Of a stretch of DNA of 64,000 bases, positions 15,650 to 49,728 are shown piece after piece (positions within the stretch are counted from its first letter, which is position 1; each line of letters begins with the position of its first letter). Under the pieces are notes generated by a model that was given only the letters and a program-made list of their open reading frames with translations, searched no databases and had not been told where the DNA came from. The translations under genes were made by a program, and so were the position numbers. This DNA is from Candidatus Woesearchaeota archaeon (lineage in GTDB: Archaea; Nanobdellota; Nanobdellia; Pacearchaeales; GW2011-AR1), in NCBI GenBank assembly GCA_964344105.1, contig CAYFMD010000003.1, forward strand, positions 8,066 to 72,065, written 5' to 3'.

Positions 15650-16494
15650 CAGTATATAATATTTTTAGAAGATTGCTACCTAGGGATTTTGCTGGAAAGA
15701 TTTATGAATATTATTTAAGATCAAGGTTTGCTAGGAATATAAAAAGAGAAAAAATGGGAATTTTTTATACTCCATTTTATGTTGTAGATTATATTGTTGA
15801 AAATTCAGTTACTAATTATATTGAAGGGATGTCGATAGATGAAATATTGGATGTTAAAATATTAGATCCTTCTTGCGGTTCTGGCAGGTTTTTGGTTAAG
15901 TCATTTGAAGTTTTATGTAGGTCTGTTGAGGATAGGTTAAGGAAAAATGAATTTTCTTCTAATTGGAAGGTTTTTGATTATTTTGATGGGAAATTAGATC
16001 GTGACCAAAAGGCTACTATATTATTTAATTGCATTTATGGGATTGATTTGGATGATAGGGCGGCTAAAATATGTAGGTTTAATTTGAGAATTTCTTCTAG
16101 TTTTATGGATGTAGGGGATGATGAATTAAATATAGTTTGTGCAGATGCTATATTGGATGAAGTTTTTGACTTAGATTTTGATTTAGTTATTGGAGGGCCA
16201 CCTTATGGATCTTATATAAAGTTTAGAGATCGGAGACTAATAGGGGAGCAGTATAATTTCGGTACTACATATAGTACGGTTATTTTTATGGCCTTCGCAA
16301 AAAATGTTACTAAGAAGGGAGGAATGAATGTAATGATTGTGCCTAAGAAAGTTTTTGTAGATGATAATTTAAACATGATTTCAGGTTATCTTGGGGAGGG
16401 ATTATTTGATATAGTGGATTTTGGCCAGGTTTGGGAAGAGGTCCCTTTAGAAGAGGTTGTTTATTTTTATAGGAAGAAAAATGGAATTAGTTAG
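15646..16494 (+). CDS. gamma-class amino-methyltransferase-fold protein (Eco57I/TaqI-like N6-adenine MTase catalytic domain). It has an atypical GPPY motif IV and no target-recognition domain.
   Basis: Motif X is GIFYTP, motif I is LDPSCGSGRFL and motif IV is IGGPPYG. At 282 aa it is too short to carry a TRD. Confidence 0.45.
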   Translation: MTVYNIFRRLLPRDFAGKIYEYYLRSRFARNIKREKMGIFYTPFYVVDYIVENSVTNYIEGMSIDEILDVKILDPSCGSGRFLVKSFEVLCRSVEDRLRKNEFSSNWKVFDYFDGKLDRDQKATILFNCIYGIDLDDRAAKICRFNLRISSSFMDVGDDELNIVCADAILDEVFDLDFDLVIGGPPYGSYIKFRDRRLIGEQYNFGTTYSTVIFMAFAKNVTKKGGMNVMIVPKKVFVDDNLNMISGYLGEGLFDIVDFGQVWEEVPLEEVVYFYRKKNGIS

Positions 16495-25483: not shown

Positions 25484-25485
25484 AC

Positions 25486-29381: not shown

Positions 29382-29400
29382 TTTATATCTATTATCATGT

Positions 29401-30156
29401 TTAATATCTATTTAGGAATTCGAAGACATATGGTTGTTCCATTGTTCGATTTTCTAAGATCATGACTAATGTGGTATCTTCTTCGAAGGCTATGAAATCT
29501 ACGTATAGTTGTCTATCTCTGGCTAGTTCAGTTATACAGTTTATGCAAATTAGGTTTGGATTTTCCTTATGAGAATCTGTTATGAAAGTTGCTACTTCTA
29601 TGATCTCTTCTAATGAGGAGTTAAGGGTTACAGGATGTTGATTTAGGTTGAAGTTTACTGTGTTTCCATTGCTTTCTATTATTACAGGTAATTCTGTTTC
29701 AAAAGTTAGTGATGTTGATTTTATTTTTGCCTTAGTTTGTGATGGCTCGTATTTTAGTTCTAGATTTTGAAAGTCTATTTGTGATATGCATTTTTCTAGG
29801 TTGGTATCTACATAACTGGCTAGCTCATTTTCTATTGTTTCTTTGAATGGTTGAGTGATAATTCCTTGATCGTAGTAGTATGGAACGAAGGCCCATTGCA
29901 TGTCTAAATGGTTTGTTGGTCTGTTAAAATATCCTCCTTGAATTCCGATTCTAATTAATGCATCTTTTGAGTTTTCTTCTAGACAATCTCTTATGAAATT
30001 TTGTACATTGTTAACTGATGGTTGAAGTCCTTGCTGATCAAAGTATTCTTTGCCTCTGTCTTCTGTTGTATTTCTTACAAAGAAAAATAGAACTATCCCT
30101 ATTACTATCACAATAGCTAATATGATTAGAACTGTTGTCTGTCCTCTTTTTTGCAT
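29401..30156 (-). CDS. pilin-like protein with class III signal peptide (paralog family member)
   Basis: It begins MQKRGQTTVLIILAIVIVIGIVLFFF and carries GIQGGY, PYYYDQ and C..C/CxxC motifs shared with 37622-38383. Confidence 0.55.
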   Translation of the reverse strand: MQKRGQTTVLIILAIVIVIGIVLFFFVRNTTEDRGKEYFDQQGLQPSVNNVQNFIRDCLEENSKDALIRIGIQGGYFNRPTNHLDMQWAFVPYYYDQGIITQPFKETIENELASYVDTNLEKCISQIDFQNLELKYEPSQTKAKIKSTSLTFETELPVIIESNGNTVNFNLNQHPVTLNSSLEEIIEVATFITDSHKENPNLICINCITELARDRQLYVDFIAFEEDTTLVMILENRTMEQPYVFEFLNRY

Positions 30157-30190
30157 GGTTAGATAAATAGATTGAGGTATTTAAGAGTTA

Positions 30191-31267
30191 TTAGTAGGTG
30201 TTTTCTTTTAGTCTCTGTTCGAATTTTGGAGAATAAATAAACTCTCCAACCCTTTTATCAATTTCTGGTTTCCATCTTTGCATTAGTGCAGGTCCGTTAT
30301 CACCAAATGCAGTTTCTAAGTCCTCTTGGCCCTCTGAAGTGTACCTTCTCCAATTTGAGTGATCAAATGATGTCCAGTGTTTTAATGTGTAATCAGTTAC
30401 TGTTCTTTGTGCTTGTTGTAAACTTATTCTGGAACCTTTTCCATCCAAAAGGAATCTTCCTGCTTTCCTAGCGTCATGGAAGTAAAATGCTTCATCTTCA
30501 TTGTTTGGTGCCCATAGCATTCTATATGATTCAATTTCTAGGGTGGTTTCTGCGAATTTTATTGGTATTGGCGTTTTTCCTTCTCGGGGAATCTCTATGT
30601 AGAAAGGGATGGTTTGGATTGGGTATCCTGATGAGGAATATATGTCAAATTCTGCATTTTCTCTGAATCTTTCATAGAAGAACATCATTAATTGATCCAT
30701 TGACATGGGATTAACAACATTCATTGGATGAGTTGGTAGGCCTTTATTATATTCTTGCCTTAATTCTTCAAGTAAATCTACTTCTGTAAATCCGGAAACA
30801 ATAACTTCATTTTCAAGAACGCTTGCTGACTGAGGAGTTCTTATTCCATTTCTTAGAACTATGTCTACCTTTCCAGTTTCTTCGTTAGGTACTAGTGCAT
30901 AATAAGGAATTTGGACATCTCTACCTGAAGTGAATAAATTATAACCTGCTTTTGCATCATCGCTTAGATTTTCTACAGCTTTTTTTGCTCCTACCGATCT
31001 TATATCAATTATCTTTTCTCTTACATCATCTGTGTAACTAAAATCTTCTGGTGTTATCCAGTATCTGAATGGGTCTACTGCTGGGGCTGTGGCTTTTGGT
31101 GTTGCCACAGTTGGTTTTTCATCTGGTTTTTCGGTTGGCGCTGGTTCGGAGTATTCAATTGGTGGAGCGACCGGAACTGGCGGGACTTTTGGTTTATCTT
31201 GTTCACATCCAATTGTGAAAGGTAGTAGAATTAGGGATGTTGCTAATATTCTTTGTACTAAATTCAT
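30191..31267 (-). CDS. secreted lipoprotein-like protein (358 aa)
   Basis: A signal peptide precedes a lipobox-like LPFTIGC, followed by a Pro-rich linker. Confidence 0.4.
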   Translation of the reverse strand: MNLVQRILATSLILLPFTIGCEQDKPKVPPVPVAPPIEYSEPAPTEKPDEKPTVATPKATAPAVDPFRYWITPEDFSYTDDVREKIIDIRSVGAKKAVENLSDDAKAGYNLFTSGRDVQIPYYALVPNEETGKVDIVLRNGIRTPQSASVLENEVIVSGFTEVDLLEELRQEYNKGLPTHPMNVVNPMSMDQLMMFFYERFRENAEFDIYSSSGYPIQTIPFYIEIPREGKTPIPIKFAETTLEIESYRMLWAPNNEDEAFYFHDARKAGRFLLDGKGSRISLQQAQRTVTDYTLKHWTSFDHSNWRRYTSEGQEDLETAFGDNGPALMQRWKPEIDKRVGEFIYSPKFEQRLKENTY

Positions 31268-31299
31268 AGAAATTAGAAAGATGGGAGATATTTAAGGTT

Positions 31300-33027
31300 T
31301 TATTTAGACTTTGCAACTATTTCTACTAGTTCAGATAGGCCTCTTGGGAACTCATCTAGATTTCCGTAAGCGCTTTGTTGATATTTATGTAGATAGCTTC
31401 CAGGTATTGTTATTGGTGAAACTCTTAATTCAGTGCTTGTTCCAGTTTCTCCCTTGTCCTTATAAGTTATCCTTCCAAATGATTTTTGACCTCCATCGTC
31501 AAAAGTCACAGTTGTTTGTACAGAGCCAACTATCATTGGACCTCTACTGAATATTTCTCTTTTTATAGTATCCACTTTATCTAATTCAGCCCCTCTTACT
31601 CCTCCTGATTCTAATCCTGTCCTTAATTCTGCAAATGTATCTGATGCTTCATCTTCAGTTATTGCTCTTTGGTAGGTGGTTTCTTCTAATAATTGTGAAA
31701 AGTGGTTGAATCCGTTTCTTCTAATTTGGTCTTCAGTCCATCCATTTGATCTAGCTATTTCTACAAAAGCATCTACTTCGCTTTGTAATGCATAAACTCT
31801 GGTGTCAGAAATGTGTACACCTAACCCTTCTCCTATCGGATTTGCATTACTTATTCCAAATCCAAATCTTGAACAGAAGGATCCTATACATACCCTATTA
31901 CTTTTATCAAATTCTACAAAGGTGGGTCCATTAGGAGTTGAAACTAATTTTCCGTTTGAAAATTTTGGAGGATTCAATTCATTAAATACAATTGTATTCC
32001 CTTTTGGGATTCTTGGATAATTAACACTTCCATCAAAGATGGTTATTTTATCATTACCATTTTTGATTCTAATGTTTTTACCATCTGCTATTGTAGTTAT
32101 TTTTTTTATTTTTGGTCCTTGGTCTAGTAAATCTATTTCAATATCATTTCCTTTTATTCTTAGGTTCTTGGTGTCTTCTTCTACACCCACTAATTGTATG
32201 TATTGTTCTGTTGTTGGTTTTTTTCTATTGAATAAAATTTCTGTCTCTTGATCTGAATTTATTCTTATCTCTGCAGCATTTGTTGTTAGTCTGATGCCTT
32301 TTCCTTTAAATTGTCCCCCCACAGGATCAATTGAGAAAGAAGATTCAGTGTCTGTGCTTGTGTCGAGTCTTTCAAATGATCTATCTCCTACACTAACTTG
32401 CGATCCTCCAATTAGTGAAAATTTTCCATCTTTGCTAATTGAGATAGATCCTTTGTTTGGCTTAAGTTGTATTGCCCCATTATCTTCTGTACTTGAAGGT
32501 ATTTGGCCTGATGTGTATCTTAAATCTTCGTCAACTTGACCTGTTGCATAATCTATAGTTGAGCTATCTTCTAATTCTAATTTTATTCCTTCTCCTTCAG
32601 TATAAGTCACTTCAGTTGTAGATTTTGGCAGATCATCTAGTTTGATCGTTATTGATCCATCACTTAGTGTATTTCTATCTATAAATTCTAATTTTGAACT
32701 CTCAAAACCAGAGAATCTCATTTCATTTACTTGTGAGTTTATTGATGCAACCTTTCCAAAATCAAAAAGGCTTAATCCCTCAGCCTTTCTTTTTTTAAGG
32801 GCATGTTTTGCTATTCCTGAGAATACTTGTCCTCTGTTTATTGATGGGTCTTCTAGAATTCTTTTTTGTTCACTTAAGGGTAATGTAGATACAGTTTCCC
32901 AGTCTCCAGAATCAATTGATTGTTGTATAAGCTCCTGAAGCTCTGTATCTGACATTTGTGTGAGGGATAGTGGTAGAACTAATATTATTCCTAGAATAAT
33001 TAGTAAATAGATATTTGTAAGTTTCAT
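31300..33027 (-). CDS. secreted protein (575 aa)
   Basis: It has an N-terminal signal/anchor MKLTNIYLLIILGIILVLPLSL. Confidence 0.45.
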   Translation of the reverse strand: MKLTNIYLLIILGIILVLPLSLTQMSDTELQELIQQSIDSGDWETVSTLPLSEQKRILEDPSINRGQVFSGIAKHALKKRKAEGLSLFDFGKVASINSQVNEMRFSGFESSKLEFIDRNTLSDGSITIKLDDLPKSTTEVTYTEGEGIKLELEDSSTIDYATGQVDEDLRYTSGQIPSSTEDNGAIQLKPNKGSISISKDGKFSLIGGSQVSVGDRSFERLDTSTDTESSFSIDPVGGQFKGKGIRLTTNAAEIRINSDQETEILFNRKKPTTEQYIQLVGVEEDTKNLRIKGNDIEIDLLDQGPKIKKITTIADGKNIRIKNGNDKITIFDGSVNYPRIPKGNTIVFNELNPPKFSNGKLVSTPNGPTFVEFDKSNRVCIGSFCSRFGFGISNANPIGEGLGVHISDTRVYALQSEVDAFVEIARSNGWTEDQIRRNGFNHFSQLLEETTYQRAITEDEASDTFAELRTGLESGGVRGAELDKVDTIKREIFSRGPMIVGSVQTTVTFDDGGQKSFGRITYKDKGETGTSTELRVSPITIPGSYLHKYQQSAYGNLDEFPRGLSELVEIVAKSK

Positions 33028-33132
33028 TCTCTTTTTATTTAAGAGTTAATTATGTGTTATAAAGATATCTTTGTTATTTATAACTATTATTAAGTAACAA
33101 CAAAAGGAAAGGTTTAAATAGTAGTTTTACAC

Positions 33133-33846
33133 ATGAATAATATGAGAAAAGCGATGAATGGATTAATGACAGGTGGTTTGGCATTGGTATTAGGCTATGC
33201 CGGATCTGGACTTGATACTCCTAGCTATGCACAGGATGCTCCTGAAGATGATAGAATAGCTCAGTCTGAAGGTAGATTGGAAAGTAGATTAGTTGATGTA
33301 GATAGTAAGTTAAGATATGATGTTTTTGATAGAATTTATGATGGGGAGACTATTGCTAAATATGCGAAGGTTAGTGATGAAGCTTTAGCTAGAGAATATG
33401 GTGATGGATATGTTGCTGAGGTTGGGAGGGTTAAGAAAGCTAGAGGATTTGCTATTGGTTATGGTGAAGCTTTAGAAGATGCTTTTGATAATCCTGAAGC
33501 AGTTATTTCTGCAATGGATGATTCGGATAGGGAACTATATGGGGAATTTGATGCTACTGAGACTTTGAAGAAACAAGGTAAAGATTCTAATTTTAGAGAA
33601 ATGTTGGGAGTTGCTGATAGTTATGAGTTCTCTGCTGATAGGGAATCTGATAAGTTAGCTGCATTTGTTGCAAAGTATGTTGCTGATGATATGGATGCTT
33701 ATGTTACAACTTCTTTAGGTGTTGCTAAGGTAGTCTTGGCTGCTGGCGATCCTTCATTATTGAAAGATGTTAGAGCTTCTAAGGTAGATCCAGAATCTGA
33801 AAGGTTTAGTAGAGCTACTAAGACACTTAGAAGAATTTTTAAGTAA
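33133..33846 (+). CDS. secreted protein (237 aa)
   Basis: It has a signal peptide ...GLALVLGYAGSG. It is convergent with the 928-aa gene. Confidence 0.4.
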   Translation: MNNMRKAMNGLMTGGLALVLGYAGSGLDTPSYAQDAPEDDRIAQSEGRLESRLVDVDSKLRYDVFDRIYDGETIAKYAKVSDEALAREYGDGYVAEVGRVKKARGFAIGYGEALEDAFDNPEAVISAMDDSDRELYGEFDATETLKKQGKDSNFREMLGVADSYEFSADRESDKLAAFVAKYVADDMDAYVTTSLGVAKVVLAAGDPSLLKDVRASKVDPESERFSRATKTLRRIFK

Positions 33847-36633
33847 TTATCTTACTAGTCCTTTTTTTCTGTCTCTTTTGTATCTCATCTGGCCTGTTCT
33901 ACCGAAGTATCTTGGTGAGTTCTTTTGGTATCTATATTGGGTTGTTTGAGTGGGAGTGTCTCTTCTTGTTGTGGGTGTTTGAGTAATTTGAGTGTTTTGA
34001 GGGGTTGAGGGATTTACGATTCTTTGTATGTATCTTGGATCATTTACAGTTCCTTGTATTGTTGGATCTATCCCACTAGTTGTGGCTACAACATTCCAAG
34101 TTCCTGGATGGAATACTCTTGATCCTGAAGTGTCATAAACTCTATTTGTAGAAGGACCTCCTAGGCTATCTAATATACTAGGCATTGCAGTGTGTACTAT
34201 TGGTGCTAGGTCTGGATTGATGATATGTGTCTGTCCGTTAACTGTTAGTTGGTATAGTCCAGATCCTCCCTCGTAACTTATGGTTCTTAGATCTCCTCCG
34301 TAAGAAGTTATTGAATTTCTTAGGAATTGAACAGCTCGATCTGCTTCTCTTACTGCACTGTCTCTAACTTCTAAGATTGATTGGCCCCTATTCAGTAATC
34401 CTGAAACGCTTCTTGTTAATTCAGAAGTTCCTGGAGATGCTATAGCTCCTGCACCTATGTCTACCATGTTTCCAATTATTTCTTCAGTTGCTTTTCCAGG
34501 GGTTCCTGATATGTCTATCGGTTTTCCTATTGTAGATTGTAACCTTTCCGATAAACTATCTAGTGCAGGAAGGCCCTCATAATAAATTTTACTTGCCTTC
34601 TTTCCTGCTGCTTCTTGCCCTACCCTTCCTGAAGATGAATAGGTAGTTAGATCAATGTCAATTGCATAATCTGAATCTGCAAGTCTTGCGTAGAATTTGG
34701 CTTTGTCATCTGGATCTCCTGAGTTATATAGTTTTAATAATTCACCATGCTCTACTCTTTCAACTTGGGTATTTACAGTCCCAACACTGTATTGGGTTCC
34801 TCCTTCAAATAGGTTTGCGAAAAATCCATCTTCTCTAGAAACTTGCCCAAATAATCCTGTTCCTCCAAATGTTACGGTATCAGATCCAGTCCTAGTTATT
34901 CTGGGAGCTCCGTAATTGTTTGAGGATATGCTGAACTGGTTTCCCCCATTGTCTGAGGTTATTGATCCTATGCTGTAAAAATTTCCAAAGTTAGTTGTTG
35001 ATGCAGTTTTTTTGTCTATAGAAACTCCTGCTGGAGATCCTCTGATTATTATTTCATCTCCATTGTATACTTTCCCTCCATTTATTCTTAGTTCTCCAAT
35101 ATTTCCATTTAGTTCTGCTTGCATGAAGCCTTGTTGGTATCTTCCTTTTTGTAATGTTGAAGAACTTATTCTATCTGTTAATGAATTTACTTGTCCTGCT
35201 AGTTGTGTACTTAACTCAGAAGTTATTTTTCCTTGTTCTGTTATTTGTGATATTGTTCCTCCTATTTGTTCTATCTCTTGAGATGATATTGCTGATGATA
35301 ATGCAGAATAAAGCTCGCTTTCAGGTGCTATTTGTAATTGTTCCTGTAATAAGCTTTCAATTAAGGGAGATGCAGTGCTCGCTAGTTGAAATCCTTCTAA
35401 GACTGAGAGTTCTGATTTATCTTTTTCAAGTAATGGTATTACTTGCTTGTAGCGGTCTACTTTTTGTTTTAATCCCTCTACACTATCTATTGCAGTTTTA
35501 GCAGCATCTGTTTCTAAGTCTCCTTGCAAGATATCAACAATTCCTCTAGCATTATCAAAAGTTCCTCTTTCAACACTTGATTCGAAAGTTTGTAAGATAT
35601 CATCATAAAGACTTCTTCCTTTTTGGTTCATAAATAGGAATCCTTTCTTTCCATCTTTTCCTATAAAATCAGGGTCGTATACTAGAATGTTTTCATCTCC
35701 CAAATCTCCTATTGCTTTTTCAAAAGTATCTCTTGATGAGAAGAATTTTGTATCTTCTCCAGTGAAGAATTGATGTTTATCTCTTTCTAGGTAAGCATGT
35801 GATAATGTGTCTATTTTTCCATCTTCATTGAAAGTTACTGTTGCAGGTTTGCTTTCTCCTTCTCTTTGATATGTACTTAACTTTGTTCCATCAGGTGATG
35901 CAAATCTTGACGCTGTTTCTGGATCTTCAGTAGCTAGTGATATTTTTGTTTTTTCAGAAGTTGAATCTATTGTTATATCTCCTCTTCCGTTCCATTTTCC
36001 AGACATTGGATCATCATAATCTGGTACCCTTTCTTCATTTAGCCTTACAAATTGATTTGTATCTGGGTCGAAGAAATACCCTCTTTGATTATCGGCTACA
36101 TTTAAGGTTACTGAACCATCTTTTTTCTTCATAATTAGTGAATGGCCATTCTCTGTTTTTTCATAAGTGACTTCAGTTATTGGGTTATCTGGGTTTTGTT
36201 GATTGTACAATTCTATATCGCTTCCTCTGAAATATGTTTTTGAATTCCCGAAAACACTTCCACTTCCAGGTCTTGTATTCTCATCGAATCCGGTCATTTT
36301 TACATTTCCATATTCTTCTCCATATTTTTTCATGAATTCAGATCTTTTTTCTGGATCTAAGTGTTCCCAAACTGATTGTTTTTTTGATTGGGTTGATTCA
36401 GCCTCCCAGTTTCTCCAGAAGTCTCCATTAATTTCATCTATTAGTGATTGTTGTTGTTCAGGCGTTAGTCTTTCAATATTGTCTGTTAGGATTGAAAGAT
36501 CATGGGTGTCTCTAAATCTATCAAGCTCTGTTTGAAATTGTTCATCTGTTAGTGGGTTTTCTTGTGATAAAACTAGGCTTATGGATAGAATGAATAGTAT
36601 GCTGATTACAGGTAGTATTTTTTTATAGTTCAT
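33847..36633 (-). CDS. large secreted protein (928 aa) with basic C-terminal tail
   Basis: It has a signal peptide MNYKKILPVISILFILSISLVLSQ. It overlaps the upstream pilin-like gene by 11 nt. It ends RYKRDRKKGLVR. Confidence 0.5.
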   Translation of the reverse strand: MNYKKILPVISILFILSISLVLSQENPLTDEQFQTELDRFRDTHDLSILTDNIERLTPEQQQSLIDEINGDFWRNWEAESTQSKKQSVWEHLDPEKRSEFMKKYGEEYGNVKMTGFDENTRPGSGSVFGNSKTYFRGSDIELYNQQNPDNPITEVTYEKTENGHSLIMKKKDGSVTLNVADNQRGYFFDPDTNQFVRLNEERVPDYDDPMSGKWNGRGDITIDSTSEKTKISLATEDPETASRFASPDGTKLSTYQREGESKPATVTFNEDGKIDTLSHAYLERDKHQFFTGEDTKFFSSRDTFEKAIGDLGDENILVYDPDFIGKDGKKGFLFMNQKGRSLYDDILQTFESSVERGTFDNARGIVDILQGDLETDAAKTAIDSVEGLKQKVDRYKQVIPLLEKDKSELSVLEGFQLASTASPLIESLLQEQLQIAPESELYSALSSAISSQEIEQIGGTISQITEQGKITSELSTQLAGQVNSLTDRISSSTLQKGRYQQGFMQAELNGNIGELRINGGKVYNGDEIIIRGSPAGVSIDKKTASTTNFGNFYSIGSITSDNGGNQFSISSNNYGAPRITRTGSDTVTFGGTGLFGQVSREDGFFANLFEGGTQYSVGTVNTQVERVEHGELLKLYNSGDPDDKAKFYARLADSDYAIDIDLTTYSSSGRVGQEAAGKKASKIYYEGLPALDSLSERLQSTIGKPIDISGTPGKATEEIIGNMVDIGAGAIASPGTSELTRSVSGLLNRGQSILEVRDSAVREADRAVQFLRNSITSYGGDLRTISYEGGSGLYQLTVNGQTHIINPDLAPIVHTAMPSILDSLGGPSTNRVYDTSGSRVFHPGTWNVVATTSGIDPTIQGTVNDPRYIQRIVNPSTPQNTQITQTPTTRRDTPTQTTQYRYQKNSPRYFGRTGQMRYKRDRKKGLVR

Positions 36634-37453
36634 TTGGTGGAAGTGTTATATCTTTAATTGAAGATTCAGATTCCGGAGATGGGATGAATATTACTTCATT
36701 TGTTCTATCTAAGCTAGCCTCTCTTACTTCTAAGAAGTTGAATGATCTAGGATAGGTGTCTGTTTTTTTAGATGATATTATTATGCTGATTATTTCTTCG
36801 TCGAAATTACTTATTTCAAAGTTTACATCATAAAGATCGGTTATATCTGATAAACAGTCAAGACAAACGGCATTTTGATTACTTATTAAGTATAGTTCTG
36901 ATGCTGAAATTAGATCATTTAGTTGAGAATCAATTTTATCATCACTTAGTTTTATGGTTGTTGAATCTTCTGCTTTTGAAATTGATAATGTTGTTGCTTG
37001 TTCTATGTATACAGAGTCTTGTTCAATATAAGGTAGTGAGTATATTTCTATCGCCTCTATGGTGTAATCGGGGAATCTTCCTCTAGTTTCACTTATGCAT
37101 ATTTGTGTATTTTCATCAATTATTAGCCCAAGATCAAGTTCAGTCACTTCTCTATTTGGAATCACTACATTATCATTGTACCTATATATTGGCATAAACA
37201 AGCCTACGTCACTTAGGTATGGCACGTGAGGTTCTTTTGAATATCCTCCTTGAGCTGAAACAAATTCTATTGAGTCTATGTATACTTGATTCATGCATTC
37301 TTCTGTGAATTGTTTAATGTTTTCAGACTCTTTATCAAATTCAGTTGAACCTAAATTACCATTATTTCCTAGTGTGAAAAATAGAATTATTGCTACTAGT
37401 GCTATGACTATTGCTAGGATTATAAGAATGGTAACTTGCCCCTTTTTCTTCAT
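36623..37453 (-). CDS. pilin-like protein with class III signal peptide (paralog family member)
   Basis: It begins MKKKGQVTILIILAIVIALVAIILFF and contains AQGGY and CLDCL motifs. Confidence 0.5.
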   Translation of the reverse strand: MKKKGQVTILIILAIVIALVAIILFFTLGNNGNLGSTEFDKESENIKQFTEECMNQVYIDSIEFVSAQGGYSKEPHVPYLSDVGLFMPIYRYNDNVVIPNREVTELDLGLIIDENTQICISETRGRFPDYTIEAIEIYSLPYIEQDSVYIEQATTLSISKAEDSTTIKLSDDKIDSQLNDLISASELYLISNQNAVCLDCLSDITDLYDVNFEISNFDEEIISIIISSKKTDTYPRSFNFLEVREASLDRTNEVIFIPSPESESSIKDITLPPNEL

Positions 37454-42326: not shown

Positions 42327-43544
<1,218 letters not shown>

Positions 43545-44151: not shown

Positions 44152-44223
44152 GGCGGATGTAGCTTAGTGGTAAAGCGCACGGTTGTGGTCCGTGTGACGG
44201 GAGTTCGATTCTCCCCTTCCGCT
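44152..44223 (+). tRNA. tRNA-His (anticodon GTG) with genomically encoded G-1
   Basis: GGCGGATGTAGCTTAGTGGTAAAGCGCACGGTTGTGGTCCGTGTGACGGGAGTTCGATTCTCCCCTTCCGCT has D-stem GCTT/AAGC, anticodon stem CACGG/CCGTG with loop TTGTGGT, and a T-arm GGGAG-TTCGATT-CTCCC. An extra 5' G is characteristic of tRNA-His. Confidence 0.85.
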
Positions 44224-44270
44224 TTTTTTCTTGATGATAGTTTAATAAATACTGGGAAGTTAATGTTATA

Positions 44271-45416
44271 ATGGATCTGGTTAAGGGATTTAAGGATGTT
44301 GAAAATGCAAGTAAGAAGATTGCGGTTAGGAATGTTATAGAAGAAACTTTCAAGCTTTACAATTATAATCCTGTTGAGATGCCCATAATTGAGACTGAGA
44401 ATTTTGTGCGTGGTGAGAATGCTGATGATGAGGCAGTTAGTAGTGTATTTAGATTGAAAGATCGTGGGAAACGTGATTTAGCACTTCGTTATGAATTTAC
44501 TTTTCAGTTGAAGAGATTGGCTAAAAATAAGAAACTGCCTTACAAGAGATACCAGATTGGAGAAGTTTTTAGAGATGAGCCTGTTGGCCCAAATAGGTGG
44601 AGGCAGTTTACCCAATGTGATGTGGATGTTGTTGGGGGCACTGTTAAGGATGAAGCCGAAGTTTTGAAGATAGCTAGCGAGATTTTTAAGAAATTGAAAA
44701 TTGATATAGCTATCAATTTTAATAATAGGAAGTTATTGAATGAGGTTCTTTCTGATAGTGGTGTTAAAGAGAAGGACAGAGATAATGTTATTAGAGAAAT
44801 TGATAAATTGGATAAGTTATCTGAAAAGGAAGTTAAGGAAAATTTAAAGAAGTTTGGGGCGGAGAAGGTTCTTAATGTAATTAAGAAAGATGAAAAGTTT
44901 TTTGAGAAGTTTGAATCTTTTAATGAAGTTAAGGAATTGAAGAGATATTGTAAGTTGTTAGGGGTTAAGATTAATTTCCAGCCTTTTTTGGCAAGAGGAT
45001 TATCTTATTACAATGGAAGTATTTTTGAGATTAAAGGCAGTAAGATGAAACAAACAATAACTGCTGGAGGGAGTTATATGGTTAATGGAAATCAAGCAAC
45101 TGGAATAAGTTTTGGTTTAGATAGAATGGAAATGTTAGCAGATTTGGGGGATGAGTTTAAGAATGTTTTAGTTGTAAGTTTGAATCAAGATGAGAAAGCT
45201 GCTGAAGTTGCTAGTAAGGTTAGGAAAGAAGGCGTTGGTTGTAGTATCTTTTATGGAAAGCCGGGTAAGGCTTTAGATTATGCAAATAGCTATGGAATTG
45301 GTTATGTTATTTTTGTTGGCGATGAAGAAGTTAAGAAGAATAAGTTTAAGATTAAGAATATGAACTCTGGTAAGGAGAAGTTGGTTGGGTTGGATAATGT
45401 TGGTAAGCTAAGTTAG
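44271..45416 (+). CDS. hisS: histidyl-tRNA synthetase (compact, 381 aa)
   Basis: The class II motif 2 reads KRYQIGEVFRDEPVGPNRWRQFTQCDVDVVG. The N-terminus has VKGFKDV and the C-terminus has the anticodon-binding fold GIGYVIFVGDEE. Confidence 0.85.
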   Translation: MDLVKGFKDVENASKKIAVRNVIEETFKLYNYNPVEMPIIETENFVRGENADDEAVSSVFRLKDRGKRDLALRYEFTFQLKRLAKNKKLPYKRYQIGEVFRDEPVGPNRWRQFTQCDVDVVGGTVKDEAEVLKIASEIFKKLKIDIAINFNNRKLLNEVLSDSGVKEKDRDNVIREIDKLDKLSEKEVKENLKKFGAEKVLNVIKKDEKFFEKFESFNEVKELKRYCKLLGVKINFQPFLARGLSYYNGSIFEIKGSKMKQTITAGGSYMVNGNQATGISFGLDRMEMLADLGDEFKNVLVVSLNQDEKAAEVASKVRKEGVGCSIFYGKPGKALDYANSYGIGYVIFVGDEEVKKNKFKIKNMNSGKEKLVGLDNVGKLS

Positions 45417-45781
45417 ACAAACTGTTCTACAAGTCGATGCCCGTTATCCTCATTTTTATTTTGTATAGCTATTATATTTGAGCTGTTTTTTAGTGCATAT
45501 TCATTTCCTCTTAGATGAACAATTCCTACCACAACGCCACCTAGTTCTGTAAATCCTGGAACAAGAACTTCTGAAATTCTTGTAGCAAGAGTTTCTCTAG
45601 GGAATGATTTTCCTTGTGTAGATCTTATTAATATTTCTGCATTGGCTCCAGGGATATAGGCTCCATTTAACATTGGATGGTCTGTTGAGCCATCTGTAGA
45701 TGGATATGTCCAACCCTCATCATATTCTTGGTAGACTCTTAGGCTTTTCCCCATATATGCTCTAATTAATTGTCTTGTCAT
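45413..45781 (-). CDS. hypothetical protein (122 aa), last gene of dnaG operon
   Basis: This is an ORF with no recognised motif. It overlaps the hisS stop by 4 nt, in convergent orientation. Confidence 0.3.
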   Translation of the reverse strand: MTRQLIRAYMGKSLRVYQEYDEGWTYPSTDGSTDHPMLNGAYIPGANAEILIRSTQGKSFPRETLATRISEVLVPGFTELGGVVVGIVHLRGNEYALKNSSNIIAIQNKNEDNGHRLVEQFV

Positions 45782-45811
45782 CTCGCTGATTAAGAATTAG
45801 GGTTTATAAGA

Positions 45812-47962
45812 CTATTTCTTTGGTTCACCTAGTTTTGCAAGTAGTGCTATTAATGTTACAGAGTCTATTAGATTATGATTAACTATTCCTTCCATTTTCT
45901 TTGCAGTTCTTTCTCTTTTTTGCCTTGGAGTTAATGGTTTTCTACGTCTTCTTTTTTCTGGAACATCTTCTCCAATCCATTCTTGGTATGTTCTTGGGAC
46001 TTCTGCTCCTGGCAGGTCGTCGCCTCTATCATATCCGAATACAACTTTCTCAACTGTTTTTAATTTTTTATCCGCTAGATCCTTGAATCTTGCCTTTGAA
46101 GGAATTAAAAGATCTATATGATCCCCATTTAGTTTTTCTCTTAGGGTTGTTCTTCTATCTCCATTTAATGAAAGTCCATTGTGTCTTGCCCTGAATCCTA
46201 GCCTTGGTATGTCAAAAGCATTTCCGTTGTAGGTTAAGGATAATCTTCCATCAATCATCTCTAAGAAGTATTCTATCATTGGTTTTTCTTCTGAAGGGTC
46301 TCTAGCTAATAATACTCCCGGTACAACTTTTTGTCCATCGAATGTTGCGTAGCTTATGCTCACTATTGGATCTATGTATCTTAGTCCTGCTGTTTCTAGA
46401 TCCCATGCAATAATATCACTTTTTCTTAATGCTCTTCCAATCCCTAATGTACTTTTTATTGAATTCAATGTTAGTAGGTCTCTATGTTCTGCTATATAAT
46501 CCGCAAGAGTGTCTGCTCCAATATCTGCTATATCTCTTCTGGTTTCTAAGAAAGGAATTCTTCTTCTATGTCTTACTTTTGTATCTGGGATTGATAAGGG
46601 TACTTCAATGGATTCTGGTTCTTCATAAGAGCCTTCATTAATTTGTTTTGCTCTTCCCACTAATCCGTTTAGCATCCTATTTGTCCAATCATGTCTCATG
46701 TGATTGCTGCTTCTCATTACAAAGCAGGATTCTTGTAGTTCTTGATGTAGCCTTAGTAAATAATCTAGGTTTGGAACTGGATTAAGTCCTGCAGTTAAAT
46801 CAGGCCTTGATTCCAATCTTGTTATAACTGCCTCTAAGTTTCTTCTAACTGTAGATTGATCCATTAATTCAATTCCTGCTTCTCTAATTTGTTCTCTGGC
46901 TGGTTCGTATGTCCAATCGGGTTGTAAGAAGAATGCATATGTTTTTTCAAGTGGATCTTCAGATGCCCATAGGTTAAATGATGTATCTGAGTATCTGTCT
47001 AGGAAATCTTGGAGTCTTGATCCTTTGAATGATCCAAAGTAAGATTTCACTTCAATTGGGCTGTTTCCAACTCTTAAATCACTAAATGCTTTTCTTCCAC
47101 CATTATATGAAAATTCGTTTCTTTCTAGTGATGTTTCTAAATCTCCATCTATTCCATTAATTTTTATTCCGAGTATTGGTGCCCAATGTAGCATGAATGA
47201 AATTAGATTTTCTGCAACTACTGAGGATCTTTTTGACTCTGCTCTACTAAGTGTTACATCTTTTTCATCTAATCCTGCAAGGTCTGCGATTATTCCTCCA
47301 GGCATTCTACTAACGGAGTGATTTGATAGGCATTGTATTTCTCTGTAGACTCTATATTCTTCTGAATCTTTTGGTGCTGATCGTAGTGCTGTTGGACAGA
47401 TGGATCTACCTTGATAGAACCAATCTAATAATCTATCTCCTAAAACTCTCCTGTCAATTTCTCTATGATCTACTTTGTCTGCAATAAATGTGTATGCTGA
47501 AGCATAGGGTCCTGGCATTGATTTTATAAATCTTCTGAAACTTCCGAATCTCTTTCCTGTTGCTGCAGTGTATTCTTTTGGATGTTCTCTTCTGAATGCT
47601 TGCACTCCATATAGTGTTCCTTGGTATGCTTGAGCGATCCTAATATCCTCTTCTGGCCAGAATTCTTTGATAGCTGATTCTATTTGTTCCCTACTGGTCC
47701 AAGTTTCATTTAATCCAAGGTGTCTTCTTAATGCAGGATTATCAATTCTTCCTAGGTGGATGACTCCTAGTTCTTTAAACCATGCTCGAGTAGCCCCGGA
47801 AAGCCGACCTTGTTTCATATCGCTATGATACATCCGGAGAATTTCAGGTTCTGGCGGAACTCTTTTACCTCCTGTTGGCTTTCCGGGACCATAAATTCGG
47901 TAACCTCCATCCAATAGTGGATGGATTTCATATTCTCCTTTTGTGAAGGGCTCTTTAGACAT
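45812..47962 (-). CDS. 716-aa protein with central PD-(D/E)xK-like nuclease motif and C-terminal RNase H-like/DEDD 3'-5' exonuclease-like domain (YprB/PF13482-like)
   Basis: The C-terminal pattern is IIAWDLETAGL ... LTYNGNAFDIPRLGF ... NHNLIDSVTL, an Asp/Glu-Asp-His-Asp arrangement. The central region SDLRVGNSPIEVKSY fits a D..(E)VK PD-(D/E)xK core. There is no P-loop. Its start overlaps the dnaG stop by 8 nt. Confidence 0.45.
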   Translation of the reverse strand: MSKEPFTKGEYEIHPLLDGGYRIYGPGKPTGGKRVPPEPEILRMYHSDMKQGRLSGATRAWFKELGVIHLGRIDNPALRRHLGLNETWTSREQIESAIKEFWPEEDIRIAQAYQGTLYGVQAFRREHPKEYTAATGKRFGSFRRFIKSMPGPYASAYTFIADKVDHREIDRRVLGDRLLDWFYQGRSICPTALRSAPKDSEEYRVYREIQCLSNHSVSRMPGGIIADLAGLDEKDVTLSRAESKRSSVVAENLISFMLHWAPILGIKINGIDGDLETSLERNEFSYNGGRKAFSDLRVGNSPIEVKSYFGSFKGSRLQDFLDRYSDTSFNLWASEDPLEKTYAFFLQPDWTYEPAREQIREAGIELMDQSTVRRNLEAVITRLESRPDLTAGLNPVPNLDYLLRLHQELQESCFVMRSSNHMRHDWTNRMLNGLVGRAKQINEGSYEEPESIEVPLSIPDTKVRHRRRIPFLETRRDIADIGADTLADYIAEHRDLLTLNSIKSTLGIGRALRKSDIIAWDLETAGLRYIDPIVSISYATFDGQKVVPGVLLARDPSEEKPMIEYFLEMIDGRLSLTYNGNAFDIPRLGFRARHNGLSLNGDRRTTLREKLNGDHIDLLIPSKARFKDLADKKLKTVEKVVFGYDRGDDLPGAEVPRTYQEWIGEDVPEKRRRRKPLTPRQKRERTAKKMEGIVNHNLIDSVTLIALLAKLGEPKK

Positions 47963-49670
47963 CTTCTAAATCATCTACTATCTCTTCGATACCTGATAGA
48001 GATCTCCCTTCTCGATGTTTTTCAAAAATTATTTCTGCAGCATCATATGCAGTTATTGTTGCATAGGCAGTTTCCATTAGTCCAAGGGAGATTGGGACTC
48101 TTTCTCCACTTGGGAATAGAATCCTTCTTACCTTGCTCCTGTCTAATCCAGGATATCTTTCCATTATTGCATCAGTAGGATCTGTTTCTGTTTTTTCAAA
48201 AAGTCCTCCAGGTCCCGCAGATATTTGTCCTGCGATTACTAATGAGTATACTGCTCTTCTTTCTCCACTTCTGAATGTATCTACAGTTACTCTTTCTTCA
48301 AATTGAGGTCTAGCTTCTGGGAAGTGTATTAGTCCCTGGAGTAATTTAAATTCAGCCAAGGCTCTGCTGTCCATTCTATCTCCATTTAGATCTCCATAAG
48401 GGATGTTAAATAGAACTGATTCTATTGAATTTCTATCTTGATTCATTCTTCCTGCTAGAGCTCCTACATAAATTCCTCTTAATTCTGAGGGGACATTTTG
48501 GAAATCTGGAGCTATCCTTTGTAGGAATGCAATCCCTCTTTCTGGAACAGTTATATCATCTCCTCTAGCCATACCATCTACATAGAATTCAAATAATGGT
48601 GTAGATCTTGCTATCTCTTCTAAAAATCTTTCTTTTCCATGGTTATGGAAAATATCTGCAGGATCTTGTCCTCCAGAGAATAATGCTATGTCTGTATTTC
48701 CTCTTCCTATTAATTTTGATGATGCCCTTAGTGCAGCTCTTTTTCCAGGATCATCTCCGTCAAATCCTAAAATAACTCTTGTATCTGGAAATCTTCTTCT
48801 TACAATCTCTGCCTGATTATCTGTAAATGCTGTACCACAACTTGCAACTATATTAAAAACTCCGTGTTGGTGTCCTAGTAGCATATCTAGATATCCTTCA
48901 GTTACAATCATTTCTCCAGAACCTCTTATTGCTCTTTGTGCTTCTTGCATTCCATAGAGGATTTTTGATTTGTCATAGATTGGAGATTCATCATCTGTGT
49001 TTACATATTTGGCGGGATCATCAATAATTGTTCTTCCTCCAAAACCTACAAACCTTCCAGTGAAGTCTTTTATTGGGAACATTATTCTTCCTCTAAATGT
49101 ATCGTAGAAATGCCCTGGCTTATCTTTTGCTTCTCTAACAAGTCCTACTTGGGCTAATTTTTTATTTCCATGTCCTGACATTAGGTTTTTTATGTAGTCC
49201 CAACTGTTTGGTGCGAAGCCTACTTTGTAATCTCTTGCGAAATCTATGTCAACATCTCTTTCTCTTAGGTATTTTTCTGATTCTGTAGTGCTTATTAGTT
49301 TCGAATAAATATCTGCTGCTTCGGCAACAATTTGATAGAGCTCATCTTTTCTTGCCCATTGTTGTCTCTCTTCTTCAGAAGATTGTATTTCATGGCCTAC
49401 TCTTGATGCAAGGGTTTGAAATGCTTCGAAAAAGGCTAATCCTTCTCTTTTTTGAACAAATGTGTATGCGTCCCCTCCTTCATTACATGCCCAGCAACGG
49501 TATGTTTGTCTATCTGGGTAGACCACTAATGATGGTTTGTTATCATCATGCCATGGGCATAGTGCTACATAGTTTTTACCTTTTGGAGTTAGAGTTAGAC
49601 TTCCTCCTATGAGGTCAACTAAGTCGACTCTGTCTTTGACTATCTTGAAATCTCCAGAGAGTTCCGCCAT
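47955..49670 (-). CDS. dnaG: bacterial-type DNA primase DnaG (CHC2 zinc-ribbon + TOPRIM)
   Basis: The zinc ribbon is CPWHDDNKPSLVVYPDRQTYRCWACNEGGDAYTFV. The TOPRIM reads MIVTEGYLDMLL...ILGFDGDDPGKRAA. Confidence 0.8.
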   Translation of the reverse strand: MAELSGDFKIVKDRVDLVDLIGGSLTLTPKGKNYVALCPWHDDNKPSLVVYPDRQTYRCWACNEGGDAYTFVQKREGLAFFEAFQTLASRVGHEIQSSEEERQQWARKDELYQIVAEAADIYSKLISTTESEKYLRERDVDIDFARDYKVGFAPNSWDYIKNLMSGHGNKKLAQVGLVREAKDKPGHFYDTFRGRIMFPIKDFTGRFVGFGGRTIIDDPAKYVNTDDESPIYDKSKILYGMQEAQRAIRGSGEMIVTEGYLDMLLGHQHGVFNIVASCGTAFTDNQAEIVRRRFPDTRVILGFDGDDPGKRAALRASSKLIGRGNTDIALFSGGQDPADIFHNHGKERFLEEIARSTPLFEFYVDGMARGDDITVPERGIAFLQRIAPDFQNVPSELRGIYVGALAGRMNQDRNSIESVLFNIPYGDLNGDRMDSRALAEFKLLQGLIHFPEARPQFEERVTVDTFRSGERRAVYSLVIAGQISAGPGGLFEKTETDPTDAIMERYPGLDRSKVRRILFPSGERVPISLGLMETAYATITAYDAAEIIFEKHREGRSLSGIEEIVDDLEDV

Positions 49671-49728
49671 GCCAGTTAATTTGCTTCTAGCTTATTAATG
49701 TTGTATATTCTAGAATGGATAGGTCAGA

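What the first reader, a model, noticed from the sequence alone, without database searches (positions are those of the whole stretch)
45413..49670. Bacterial-type DnaG primase translationally coupled to a 716-aa dual-nuclease-domain protein (three-gene minus-strand operon)
The primase has the bacterial N-terminal CHC2 zinc ribbon (CPWHDD...YRCWACNEGGD) in addition to TOPRIM. Canonical archaeal DnaG homologues lack this module and act in the exosome. The dnaG stop overlaps by 8 nt the start of a 716-aa protein. That protein's C-terminal ~200 aa carry a DEDD/RNase-H-like exonuclease signature (AWDLETAGL ... YNGNAFDIPRLGF ... HNLIDSV). Its middle contains a D...EVK motif compatible with a PD-(D/E)xK nuclease, and its first ~300 aa are unassignable. 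A 122-aa unknown protein follows. The encoded proteins are R/A/G/P-richer than neighbouring genes, which suggests horizontal origin. This could be the replicative primase plus a proofreading or Okazaki-processing partner borrowed from bacteria, in line with the bacterial gyrase here. It could equally be a module of an integrated element or defence island. The 716-aa architecture is not one I can place in a named family.
Basis: partly seen in the sequence, partly recalled or inferred. Interest (0 to 1): 0.65.

Follow-up and report, generated by a model that had tools for sequence, protein, structure and literature searches.

The report
Conserved archaeal primase–nuclease gene module
A tiny-celled (DPANN) archaeon carries a true bacterial-style DNA primase that, here and in many distantly related DPANN archaea, always sits directly upstream of two nuclease modules (fused here into one 716-aa protein). 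This looks like an undescribed, vertically inherited primase–nuclease machine, not a mobile element.

Summary
Gene 47955-49670(-) is a bona fide bacterial-type DnaG, with a CHC2 zinc ribbon, catalytic core and TOPRIM (TIGR01391, 340 bits against a cutoff of 284). Its stop overlaps by 8 nt the start of a 716-aa protein.

The 716-aa protein is a fusion of two modules that are separate genes in most relatives. One is a ~455-aa module with no Pfam, PDB or PHROG match. It carries a family-wide E251…D295…E304-x-K306 motif on an α-β-β-β-α-β core, which is PD-(D/E)xK-like. The other is a DEDDh 3'-5' exonuclease (PF13482, YprB/MrfB and PolB-exo type).

The order dnaG → N-module → exonuclease recurs in about 14 lineages of Pace-, Woese- and Nanoarchaeia, and I found no counter-example. 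One lineage fuses DnaG directly to the exonuclease.

Flanking genes are housekeeping and syntenic in relatives, and GC3 is host-like. Phage, plasmid, IMG/VR and PADLOC searches found nothing, so the mobile-element or defence reading is not supported.

The 122-aa ORF lies in a strain-specific ~400-bp insertion and is not part of the module.

The function is inferred: a primase–nuclease complex acting in DNA replication or re-priming.

The parts
47955..49670 (-). dnaG: bacterial-type DNA primase, 571 aa
   Evidence: TIGR01391 at 340 bits against a cutoff of 283.6. Pfam Zn_ribbon_DnaG, DNAG_N and Toprim. Aquifex DnaG 2au3 at E 2.5e-59.
49377..49643 (-). DnaG CHC2 zinc-ribbon domain (residues 10-98; C38, H41, C59, C62)
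   Evidence: PF01807 at 2.9e-26. Motif positions.
48654..49289 (-). DnaG catalytic core: DNAG_N plus TOPRIM (residues 128-339; EGYLD at 258, DGDDPG at 304)
   Evidence: PF08275 at 5.9e-32 and PF13155 at 1.8e-14. Aligned to the catalytic motifs of solved DnaGs.
47958..48473 (-). DnaG C-terminal region (residues ~400-571), specific to this clade, with no detectable DnaB-binding domain
   Evidence: Bacterial DnaGs cover only 60-80% of the query. The CTD is 11-26% identical to distant module-associated DnaGs. A CTD profile finds no solved DnaG C-domain. PF10410 is only sub-threshold, at 20.3 bits against a cutoff of 20.6.
47955..47962 (-). 8-nt overlap ATGTCTAA (stop of dnaG, start of the 716-aa gene)
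   Evidence: Read directly from the sequence. The same 8-nt overlap occurs in L001 and L029.
45812..47962 (-). 716-aa fusion protein: N-module plus exonuclease module
   Evidence: Close homologues are 57-82% identical. The family occurs both fused and split: 19 fused, 49 N-only and 85 C-only among 153 proteins.
46598..47962 (-). N-module (residues 1-455): a new family made of a β-hairpin head, a helical region with an HTH-like segment, a PD-(D/E)xK-like core and a helical tail
   Evidence: AF2 model at pLDDT 91.1. No Pfam, PHROG or PDB sequence match. No significant fold match.
46853..47245 (-). Predicted PD-(D/E)xK-like nuclease core (residues 240-370)
   Evidence: DSSP order is helix 240-263, β283-286, β290-293, β296-298, β301-306, helix 314-324, β341-345. 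E251, D295, E304 and K306 are invariant or at least 90% conserved in 30 distant members.
47045..47080 (-). Signature motif D295-L-R-V-G-N-S-P-I-E304-V-K306
   Evidence: Family consensus ADLR[IV]GNxA[IV]EVK.
45815..46597 (-). C-module (residues 456-716): a small head domain plus the DEDDh 3'-5' exonuclease. It is a separate ~250-290-aa gene in most relatives.
   Evidence: Alignment A4 of 22 members. Split loci L010, L014, L015, L020 and L027.
45833..46414 (-). DEDDh exonuclease domain (residues 517-710; D521, E523, D584, H696, D700)
   Evidence: PF13482 at 6.4e-18. Catalytic columns are invariant or nearly so. PDB hits to the PolB exonuclease domain and MrfB.
45413..45781 (-). 122-aa orphan ORF inside a strain-specific ~400-bp insertion (about 45415-45812). 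It is not part of the conserved module.
   Evidence: Absent in L002, L003 and L008, where the 715-aa gene abuts HisRS. Its only cluster has 2 members. No hits elsewhere.
49671..49728 (-). 58-nt AT-rich spacer between the upstream methyltransferase gene and dnaG. It is a possible promoter region.
   Evidence: Sequence read. No functional evidence.

Best explanation
The locus encodes a chromosomal, vertically inherited DPANN-archaeal module with three parts.
1. A complete bacterial-type DnaG primase.
2. A new ~455-aa protein module: helical with an HTH-like segment, and a PD-(D/E)xK-like endonuclease core.
3. A DEDDh 3'-5' exonuclease of the YprB/MrfB and PolB-exo family.

In this lineage parts 2 and 3 are fused into the 716-aa protein.

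Shown here:
- the domain identities;
- intact catalytic motifs in all three modules;
- strict gene order with overlapping or abutting reading frames across distant lineages;
- recurrent fusions (N-module with exonuclease, and DnaG with exonuclease);
- housekeeping, syntenic surroundings.

Inferred:
- The three activities form one complex, probably held through the clade-specific DnaG C-terminal region, which replaces the bacterial DnaB-binding domain.
- The complex couples RNA priming to nucleolytic processing of DNA during chromosome replication or fork restart.

The version I favour is this. The endonuclease incises a nicked, flapped or stalled-fork structure. The 3'-5' exonuclease widens the incision into a single-stranded gap. 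DnaG has no DnaB here to feed it template, so it primes on that gap. Alternatively, the nucleases trim or clear primers that DnaG has made.
For: Identity of the parts.

Family structure: a profile search of 1.84 billion representatives gives 46 hits below 1e-30. Among the 153 family proteins retrieved, 19 are fused, 49 are N-only and 85 are C-only.

Gene order dnaG → N-module → exonuclease:
- in Pacearchaeota L010;
- in GTDB genomes L012-L015, which are Pacearchaeota, Nanoarchaeia and Woesearchaeota;
- in metagenome loci L018-L020, L023, L026 and L027;
- in L029;
- in the window clade, L001-L008.
No counter-example was found wherever upstream DNA exists.

Fusions: P0157 is an 831-aa DnaG fused directly to the exonuclease, with D-I-E, D and H..D intact.

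Catalytic conservation: N-module E251, D295, E304 and K306. Exonuclease D521, E523, D584, H696 and D700.

Structure: the AF2 model of the N-module has pLDDT 91 and an α-β-β-β-α-β core around the motif. The weak top fold hits are nucleases: FANCM ERCC4-like, MspJI, Nt.BspD6I and TnsA-N.

Replication neighbours: FEN1 and PolB flank the module in L027. RFC small and large subunits lie downstream in L014. RNase HII and SMC lie upstream in L029.

The window itself is core archaeal chromosome: S3Ae, Kae1, FtsY, ELP3, ScpA, aaRS genes and gyrase.
Against: - There is no biochemical or expression evidence, so complex formation is inferred only from gene order and fusions.
- The PD-(D/E)xK assignment has no significant sequence or fold match. 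The best Foldseek E-value is 0.14.
- Replication genes are adjacent in only 3 of about 14 lineages.
- I could not check whether these genomes also keep PriS/PriL, archaeal DnaG, MCM or DnaB, so the division of labour is unknown.
- The published survey in PMC7414124 says cluster-2 DPANN keep a fused PriS-PriL. If so, DnaG need not be the main replicative primase.
- DnaG monophyly is poorly supported: NJ bootstrap is 33%.
- A 3'-5' exonuclease cannot remove primers from their 5' ends, so a simple Okazaki-maturation role does not fit it.
Confidence: 0.55

Rival explanations
1. It is a recently acquired mobile-element, plasmid/virus replication or defence-island module, as in the first reader's alternative.
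For: - The amino-acid composition is mildly unusual.
- DnaG-like domains occur in defence reverse transcriptases. PADLOC RT_UG29 and RTasDnaG-like match the primase domain.
- PHROG primase families match DnaG strongly.
- A tRNA-His gene lies 1.2 kb beyond the operon end.
- A strain-specific 400-bp insertion sits at the 3' end.
Against: - The same methyltransferase – dnaG – nuclease – HisRS order holds in relatives at 82%, 76% and 57% identity.
- GC3 is host-like.
- No integrase or repeat boundaries were found.
- The 716-aa protein and the N-module have no PADLOC, phage, plasmid or IMG/VR match.
- Distant loci sit among aaRS, RFC, FEN1 and PolB genes.
- The PADLOC hits cover only the primase domain, and no RT domain is present.
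Confidence: 0.05
2. It is an RNA-metabolism module. The primase-like protein and the two nucleases would act on RNA (3'-end trimming or degradation). This would parallel the way archaeal DnaG serves the exosome. Cluster-2 DPANN lack the Csl4 subunit that anchors archaeal DnaG to the exosome.
For: - Archaeal DnaG is an exosome subunit that needs Csl4 (PMC3672285, PMC4227792).
- Cluster-2 DPANN lack Csl4 (PMC7414124).
- DEDD exonucleases include many RNases.
- Neighbours are often aaRS and tRNA-modification genes.
Against: - The protein is a full bacterial primase with zinc ribbon and catalytic motifs. It scores 340 bits on the DnaG equivalog model and only 11 bits on the archaeal DnaG model.
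- The exonuclease's nearest relatives are DNA exonucleases, namely the PolB exonuclease domain and MrfB.
- FEN1, PolB and RFC are neighbours in some loci.
Confidence: 0.1
3. DnaG is simply the cell's primase, and the nuclease genes are unrelated neighbours kept together by chance or by shared expression level.
For: Small DPANN genomes are gene-dense, and overlapping reading frames are common.
Against: - Adjacency is kept across lineages whose N-modules are only 19-28% identical, while the flanking genes differ completely.
- Two kinds of gene fusion exist, including DnaG with the exonuclease.
Confidence: 0.05
4. It is a dedicated DNA-repair pathway (excision or inter-strand lesion repair, like MrfAB) in which priming fills resected gaps. 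On this reading it is not part of the replisome.
For: - The exonuclease belongs to the YprB/MrfB family. MrfB 8un9 matches at E 3e-6.
- An endonuclease plus a 3'-5' exonuclease is a typical incision-and-resection pair.
Against: - No MrfA-like helicase is adjacent in any locus.
- Resection from a nick leaves a 3'-OH, so a primase is not obviously needed.
- The replication-gene neighbours favour a fork-associated role.
Confidence: 0.2

Closest known systems
Bacterial DnaG primase (TIGR01391 / COG0358), e.g. Aquifex aeolicus 2au3 and E. coli 1dd9
   Same: It has the N-terminal CHC2 zinc ribbon, the DNAG_N and TOPRIM catalytic core, and conserved EGYxD and DGDxxG motifs. It scores above the curated equivalog cutoff.
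   Different: The host is an archaeon. The C-terminal ~170 aa are clade-specific, with no detectable DnaB-binding domain. The gene is always followed by nuclease genes, not placed in the bacterial rpsU-dnaG-rpoD context.
Archaeal DnaG (exosome-associated TOPRIM protein, NF003108)
   Same: It shares the TOPRIM fold and the name.
   Different: The score is 11 bits against a cutoff of 300. Archaeal DnaG lacks the zinc ribbon and works with the Csl4-exosome (PMC3672285, PMC4227792). This protein is not that family.
YprB/MrfB-type DEDDh exonucleases (Pfam PF13482 RNase_H_2) and the 3'-5' exonuclease domain of family-B DNA polymerases
   Same: The C-terminal domain scores 65.7 bits against a cutoff of 22. 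The DEDDh residues are conserved. PDB profile hits go to the PolB exonuclease domain and to MrfB 8un9.
   Different: It is not linked to an MrfA-like helicase or to a polymerase domain. It is fused or adjacent to a new endonuclease-like module and to DnaG. It has its own ~55-aa head domain and extra invariant residues: ARDxxEE, HxD, and R…D (R646, D649).
PD-(D/E)xK (restriction-endonuclease-like) nucleases, e.g. ERCC4/XPF/Hef/FANCM, TnsA-N and MspJI
   Same: There is a conserved E…D…E-x-K signature on an α-β-β-β-α-β core in a confident model. The weak top fold hits are nucleases of this fold.
   Different: There is no significant sequence or structure match to any member. The large helical N-terminal region and the C-terminal helices have no counterpart.
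Primosome-type assemblies that couple a DnaG-type primase to a partner (DnaB–DnaG, and phage T7 gp4 primase-helicase)
   Same: A DnaG-type primase is genetically, and sometimes covalently, tied to a partner enzyme that acts on the same DNA.
   Different: The partner here is a pair of nucleases, not a helicase. No helicase gene lies in the module.

Membership tests
Bacterial DnaG primase (TIGR01391) | N-terminal CHC2 zinc-ribbon domain | tested here: met
   PF01807 at 2.9e-26, residues 10-98. C38-x2-H41 … C59-x2-C62. Aligned to 2au3 and 1d0q.
Bacterial DnaG primase (TIGR01391) | DNAG_N plus TOPRIM RNA-polymerase core with the catalytic Glu (EGYxD) and the DxD motif | tested here: met
   PF08275 at 5.9e-32, PF13155 at 1.8e-14. 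EGYLD at 258 and DGDDPG at 304 align to solved DnaGs.
Bacterial DnaG primase (TIGR01391) | Whole-protein score above the curated equivalog cutoff | tested here: met
   340.2 bits against a cutoff of 283.6.
Bacterial DnaG primase (TIGR01391) | C-terminal helicase (DnaB)-binding domain | tested here: inconclusive
   There is no PF08278 hit. PF10410 scores 20.3 bits against a cutoff of 20.6. A CTD profile finds no solved DnaG C-domain. Bacterial CTDs are themselves very divergent, so absence is not proven.
Bacterial DnaG primase (TIGR01391) | Primer synthesis on ssDNA | not testable with these tools
   Needs biochemistry.
Archaeal exosome-type DnaG (NF003108) | Match to the archaeal DnaG model; no zinc ribbon; archaeal NTD and CTD | tested here: not met
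   E 0.16, 11.2 bits against a cutoff of 300. A zinc ribbon is present.
PF13482 RNase_H_2 (YprB/MrfB) DEDDh exonuclease | Pfam score above the gathering threshold | tested here: met
   65.7 bits against a cutoff of 22, residues 521-710.
PF13482 RNase_H_2 (YprB/MrfB) DEDDh exonuclease | Conserved DEDDh catalytic residues | tested here: met
   D521, E523, D584 and D700 are invariant. N579 and H696 are at least 90% conserved in 22 distant members.
MrfAB-type repair pair | Exonuclease paired with an MrfA-like helicase gene | tested here: not met
   No helicase is adjacent in the window or in any related locus.
PD-(D/E)xK nuclease superfamily | Conserved acidic/Lys signature (E … D … E-x-K) | tested here: met
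   D295 is invariant. E251, E304 and K306 are at least 90% conserved in 30 members that are 19-28% identical. The exceptions are conservative: E→D and K→R.
PD-(D/E)xK nuclease superfamily | α-β-β-β-α-β core carrying the signature | tested here: met
   DSSP of the pLDDT-91 model shows helix 240-263, four strands in 283-306, helix 314-324 and strand 341-345.
PD-(D/E)xK nuclease superfamily | Significant sequence or structure similarity to an established member | tested here: not met
Known anti-phage defence systems (PADLOC) | Match of the component proteins to a defence-system model | tested here: not met
   The 716-aa protein, the 122-aa ORF, and the split N- and C-modules give no hits. DnaG matches only through the primase domain of RT_UG29 and RTasDnaG-like, and no RT is present.
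Integrated mobile element | Integrase or att boundaries, atypical synonymous composition, presence in virus or plasmid collections, variable insertion among relatives | tested here: not met
   There is no integrase among the neighbours. GC3 is host-like. Nothing was found in IMG/VR, phages or plasmids. The position is syntenic in relatives.

The most novel reading that the evidence does not exclude
The triad is a previously unrecognised, helicase-independent priming machine of Nanoarchaeota-type DPANN archaea. A new endonuclease and a DEDDh exonuclease would create or process the single-stranded template on which an anciently acquired bacterial DnaG primes. The machine would be a core part of chromosome replication or fork restart in these organisms. 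That would make their replisome a hybrid, combining bacterial gyrase, a PolII-like PolB and DnaG with a lineage-specific adaptor-nuclease in place of DnaB.
Probability: 0.2. Interest if true: 0.8.

Novelty: new variant of a known kind. Interest (0 to 1): 0.62.

Why it matters
Archaeal replication is taught as eukaryote-like: a PriS/PriL primase, with 'DnaG' relegated to the exosome.

This locus shows something different. A large uncultivated archaeal radiation (Pace-, Woese- and Nanoarchaeia) keeps a true bacterial-type primase as a core chromosomal gene. That primase is hard-wired, by gene order and by fusions, to two nuclease activities, one of which is a protein family with no annotation at all.

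If the three act together, this is a new way of coupling priming to DNA processing. It is also a concrete case of how a bacterial replication enzyme was re-plugged into an archaeal cell without its usual helicase partner.

The result yields:
- a clean, testable set of recombinant proteins;
- a new family (at least 65 clusters at 50% identity) that deserves a Pfam or arCOG entry;
- a candidate synapomorphy for DPANN phylogeny.

Tried and rejected
1. Word-index homology searches with the 716-aa protein and with an N-module profile returned only 4-5 proteins. The exhaustive profile search was needed.
2. The first genome-contig scan, with the close alignment, found nothing. A 30-sequence alignment was too divergent for pattern design. 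An 11-sequence subset worked.
3. AF2 on the 4-sequence full-length alignment was useless, at pLDDT 41. The N-module with 30 sequences gave pLDDT 91.
5. Profile searches against PDB with the whole N-module, with the nuclease core alone, and with the DnaG CTD gave nothing. Kelch hits to the core are a chance 'ERYxPxxNxW' motif.
6. Member-by-member scans of the 30 N-modules against Pfam and PHROGs found no recurrent family.
7. No PIP-box-like motif occurs in any of the three proteins.
8. No repeats bound the 400-bp insertion that carries the 122-aa ORF. That ORF has no relatives anywhere searched.
9. NJ phylogeny of DnaG: 11 of 12 module-associated DnaGs cluster exclusively, but bootstrap support is only 33%. 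A single acquisition is compatible with the data but not demonstrated.
10. FEN1, PolB and RNase HII are not adjacent in most loci.
11. Literature searches found no description of this module, nor of a zinc-ribbon DnaG in DPANN. Project PRJEB17505 was not found.
12. The sigma-70 promoter scan found fewer sites than shuffled controls (11 against a mean of 16.4). The terminator-like scan found 7 against a mean of 3.7 (sd 2.2), and the sites were not examined further. The promoter model does not apply to archaea in any case.

Full report
**1. What is at the coordinates**

The first two overlap by 8 nt. The sequence ATGTCTAA holds the start codon of the second gene and the TAA stop of the first.

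The window as a whole is ordinary archaeal chromosome:
- ribosomal protein S3Ae, Kae1, FtsY, ELP3, archaeal-type tRNA-guanine transglycosylase, ScpA, PheRS, GluRS and HisRS;
- a tRNA-His gene;
- a bacterial-type gyrB/gyrA pair at 23594-28053.

**2. The primase**

The 571-aa protein is a full bacterial-type DnaG.
- Pfam finds the CHC2 zinc ribbon (2.9e-26), DNAG_N (5.9e-32) and TOPRIM.
- The NCBIfam equivalog model TIGR01391 scores 340 bits against a cutoff of 283.6.
- The archaeal-DnaG model scores 11 bits against a cutoff of 300.
- The best solved relative is Aquifex DnaG (2au3, E 2.5e-59), with the catalytic EGYxD and DGDxxG motifs aligned.

Bacterial DnaGs match at 31-40% identity, but over only 60-80% of the length. 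The last ~170 residues are shared only with close archaeal relatives. A profile of them finds no solved DnaB-binding domain.

**3. The 716-aa protein is a fusion of two modules**

Only four close homologues exist in the word-indexed database, at 57-100% identity. An exhaustive profile search of 1.84 billion representatives found 46 proteins below 1e-30. That search revealed two forms:
- a fused ~700-aa form;
- a split form, with a ~460-480-aa N-module and a ~250-290-aa C-module.

Among 153 family proteins retrieved, 19 are fused, 49 are N-only and 85 are C-only.

The C-module is a DEDDh 3'-5' exonuclease.
- It matches PF13482 at 65.7 bits.
- Profile hits in PDB go to the exonuclease domain of archaeal PolB and to B. 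subtilis MrfB.
- D521, E523, D584, H696 and D700 are invariant or nearly so in 22 distant members.

The N-module matches nothing in Pfam, NCBIfam, PHROGs, PADLOC or PDB, whether by sequence or by profile.
- With a 30-sequence alignment, AlphaFold gives a confident model (pLDDT 91.1, pTM 0.71).
- The model shows a small β-hairpin head, a helical region, an α-β-β-β-α-β core and a helical tail. I read the IADLAGLDEKDV segment in the helical region as HTH-like, from the sequence alone.
It is the family signature, ADLR[IV]GNxA[IV]EVK.
- D295 is invariant. E251 (on the preceding helix), E304 and K306 are at least 90% conserved, at 19-28% overall identity.

**4. The link to DnaG is conserved far beyond this organism**

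In a Pacearchaeota MAG whose N-module is only 21% identical, the order is dnaG (606 aa), then N-module (471 aa), then exonuclease (257 aa). The genes are on one strand and abut or overlap.

The same order holds elsewhere:
- four GTDB genomes named Pacearchaeota, Nanoarchaeia and Woesearchaeota;
- every metagenome locus with enough upstream DNA;
- L029;
- the four species of the window's own clade.

That makes about 14 lineages with no counter-example.

Junctions are gaps of 1-2 nt or overlaps of 4-29 nt. Fusions of the N-module with the exonuclease recur. One lineage (P0157, 831 aa) fuses DnaG directly to the exonuclease, with catalytic motifs intact and no N-module alongside.

Conserved order combined with two kinds of fusion is strong evidence that the three activities work together. 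The most likely arrangement is a single complex.

**5. It is not a mobile element or a defence island**

- In relatives at 82%, 76% and 57% identity the module has the same neighbours: methyltransferase, ELP3 and GluRS on one side, and HisRS, TGT and rhomboid on the other.
- GC3 of the genes (0.20-0.22) is typical for minus-strand genes of this window.
- Only amino-acid composition is somewhat shifted, by about 1.2 sd, and several other genes share that shift.
- The neighbours include no integrase, and no repeats bound the insertion at the module's 3' end.
- The N-module has no relatives in IMG/VR, GenBank phages or PLSDB plasmids. No PADLOC model matches the nuclease protein.
- Distant loci lie among aaRS genes and archaeal markers.
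- In three lineages replication genes are close by. FEN1 and PolB flank the module in L027. RFC small and large subunits lie downstream in L014. RNase HII and SMC lie upstream in L029.

Any bacterial origin of DnaG is therefore ancient. An NJ tree groups 11 of 12 module-associated DnaGs exclusively, but with only 33% bootstrap support, so a single acquisition is not proven. Published work reports another bacterial-derived replication gene in these lineages, the PolII-like PolB group B7 (PMC7544198). The window itself carries a bacterial-type gyrase.

**6. The 122-aa ORF**

It sits in a ~400-bp insertion between the convergent stops of the nuclease gene and HisRS. The insertion is absent from the closest relatives. 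The ORF has no homologue beyond its own two-member cluster. It is not part of the module. Whether it is expressed is unknown.

**7. Mechanism**

Shown:
- an intact primase;
- an intact DEDDh exonuclease;
- a conserved PD-(D/E)xK-like signature;
- obligatory linkage of the three.

Inferred:
- They form a complex, probably through the clade-specific DnaG C-terminal region, which stands where bacteria have the DnaB-binding domain.
- The complex couples priming to nucleolytic processing of DNA at replication forks or during restart.

My favoured version runs as follows. The endonuclease incises a nicked, flapped or stalled-fork structure. The 3'-5' exonuclease opens a single-stranded gap. DnaG then primes on that gap, which would explain how a DnaG can work without DnaB. 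Trimming or clearance of primers is an alternative.

A plain Okazaki-maturation role fits poorly, because a 3'-5' exonuclease cannot remove 5' RNA.

Rivals I cannot exclude are a repair-only pathway of the MrfB kind and an RNA-processing role. The second is prompted by the published loss of Csl4 in these DPANN (PMC7414124).

I could not test which other primases, helicases or polymerases these genomes keep.

**8. Novelty**

I found no paper describing a zinc-ribbon DnaG in DPANN or this gene triad. The one named member is labelled 'hypothetical protein'.

The parts belong to known superfamilies. What is new is the combination, together with the N-module family (at least 65 clusters at 50% identity). 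I rate this a new variant of a known kind (a primase with a dedicated partner), of moderate to high interest for archaeal replication and DPANN evolution.

Noticed in passing
window 1-64000: The + strand is G-rich and T-rich almost everywhere, whatever the gene orientation. Cumulative GC skew rises monotonically to 14.3. The whole window therefore lies on one replichore, with strong strand-specific mutational bias. That bias also lowers GC3 of minus-strand genes.
   Followed up: partly
window 28158-37453 (-): Six consecutive ORFs (407, 251, 358, 575, 928 and 276 aa) have no Pfam match at all. Their Gly/Ala/Arg/Pro-rich composition resembles that of the dnaG operon.
   Followed up: no
window 45415-45812: A ~400-bp strain-specific insertion carries the orphan 122-aa ORF. 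It lies between the convergent stops of the nuclease gene and HisRS. It has no bounding repeats and no homologues.
   Followed up: yes
L028 7374-9869 (protein P0157): An 831-aa protein has a full DnaG fused directly to the RNase_H_2 exonuclease. No N-module gene lies next to it.
   Followed up: partly
L013 4687-9057; also L018 and L019: In a Nanoarchaeia MAG, dnaG is split into a 187-aa zinc-ribbon ORF and a 401-aa catalytic ORF. Both lie upstream of an 845-aa fused nuclease. This could be a real split or a frameshift.
   Followed up: no
L027 2447-10725; L014 12654-15116; L029 5320-6018: Replication genes lie next to the module in some lineages. L027 has FEN1 divergently upstream and a family-B DNA polymerase 160 nt downstream. 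L014 has the RFC small and large subunits downstream. L029 has RNase HII upstream.
   Followed up: partly
window 44152-45416: tRNA-His(GTG) lies 47 nt upstream of, and on the same strand as, the histidyl-tRNA synthetase gene.
   Followed up: no
window 42357-43544: The tRNA-guanine transglycosylase is only 395 aa, and the Pfam TGT domain spans nearly all of it (residues 9-393). There is therefore no room for the C-terminal PUA-type domains that, as far as I recall, archaeosine TGTs usually have.
   Followed up: no
window 15646-16494: A 282-aa N6-adenine DNA-methylase / Eco57I-like ORF sits inside a cluster of glycosyltransferase, LicD, TylF and sulfotransferase genes.
   Followed up: no
window 23594-28053: A bacterial-type DNA gyrase pair, gyrB (629 aa) and gyrA (855 aa), is confirmed. 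This is a second bacterial-type DNA-transaction system on the same contig.
   Followed up: partly
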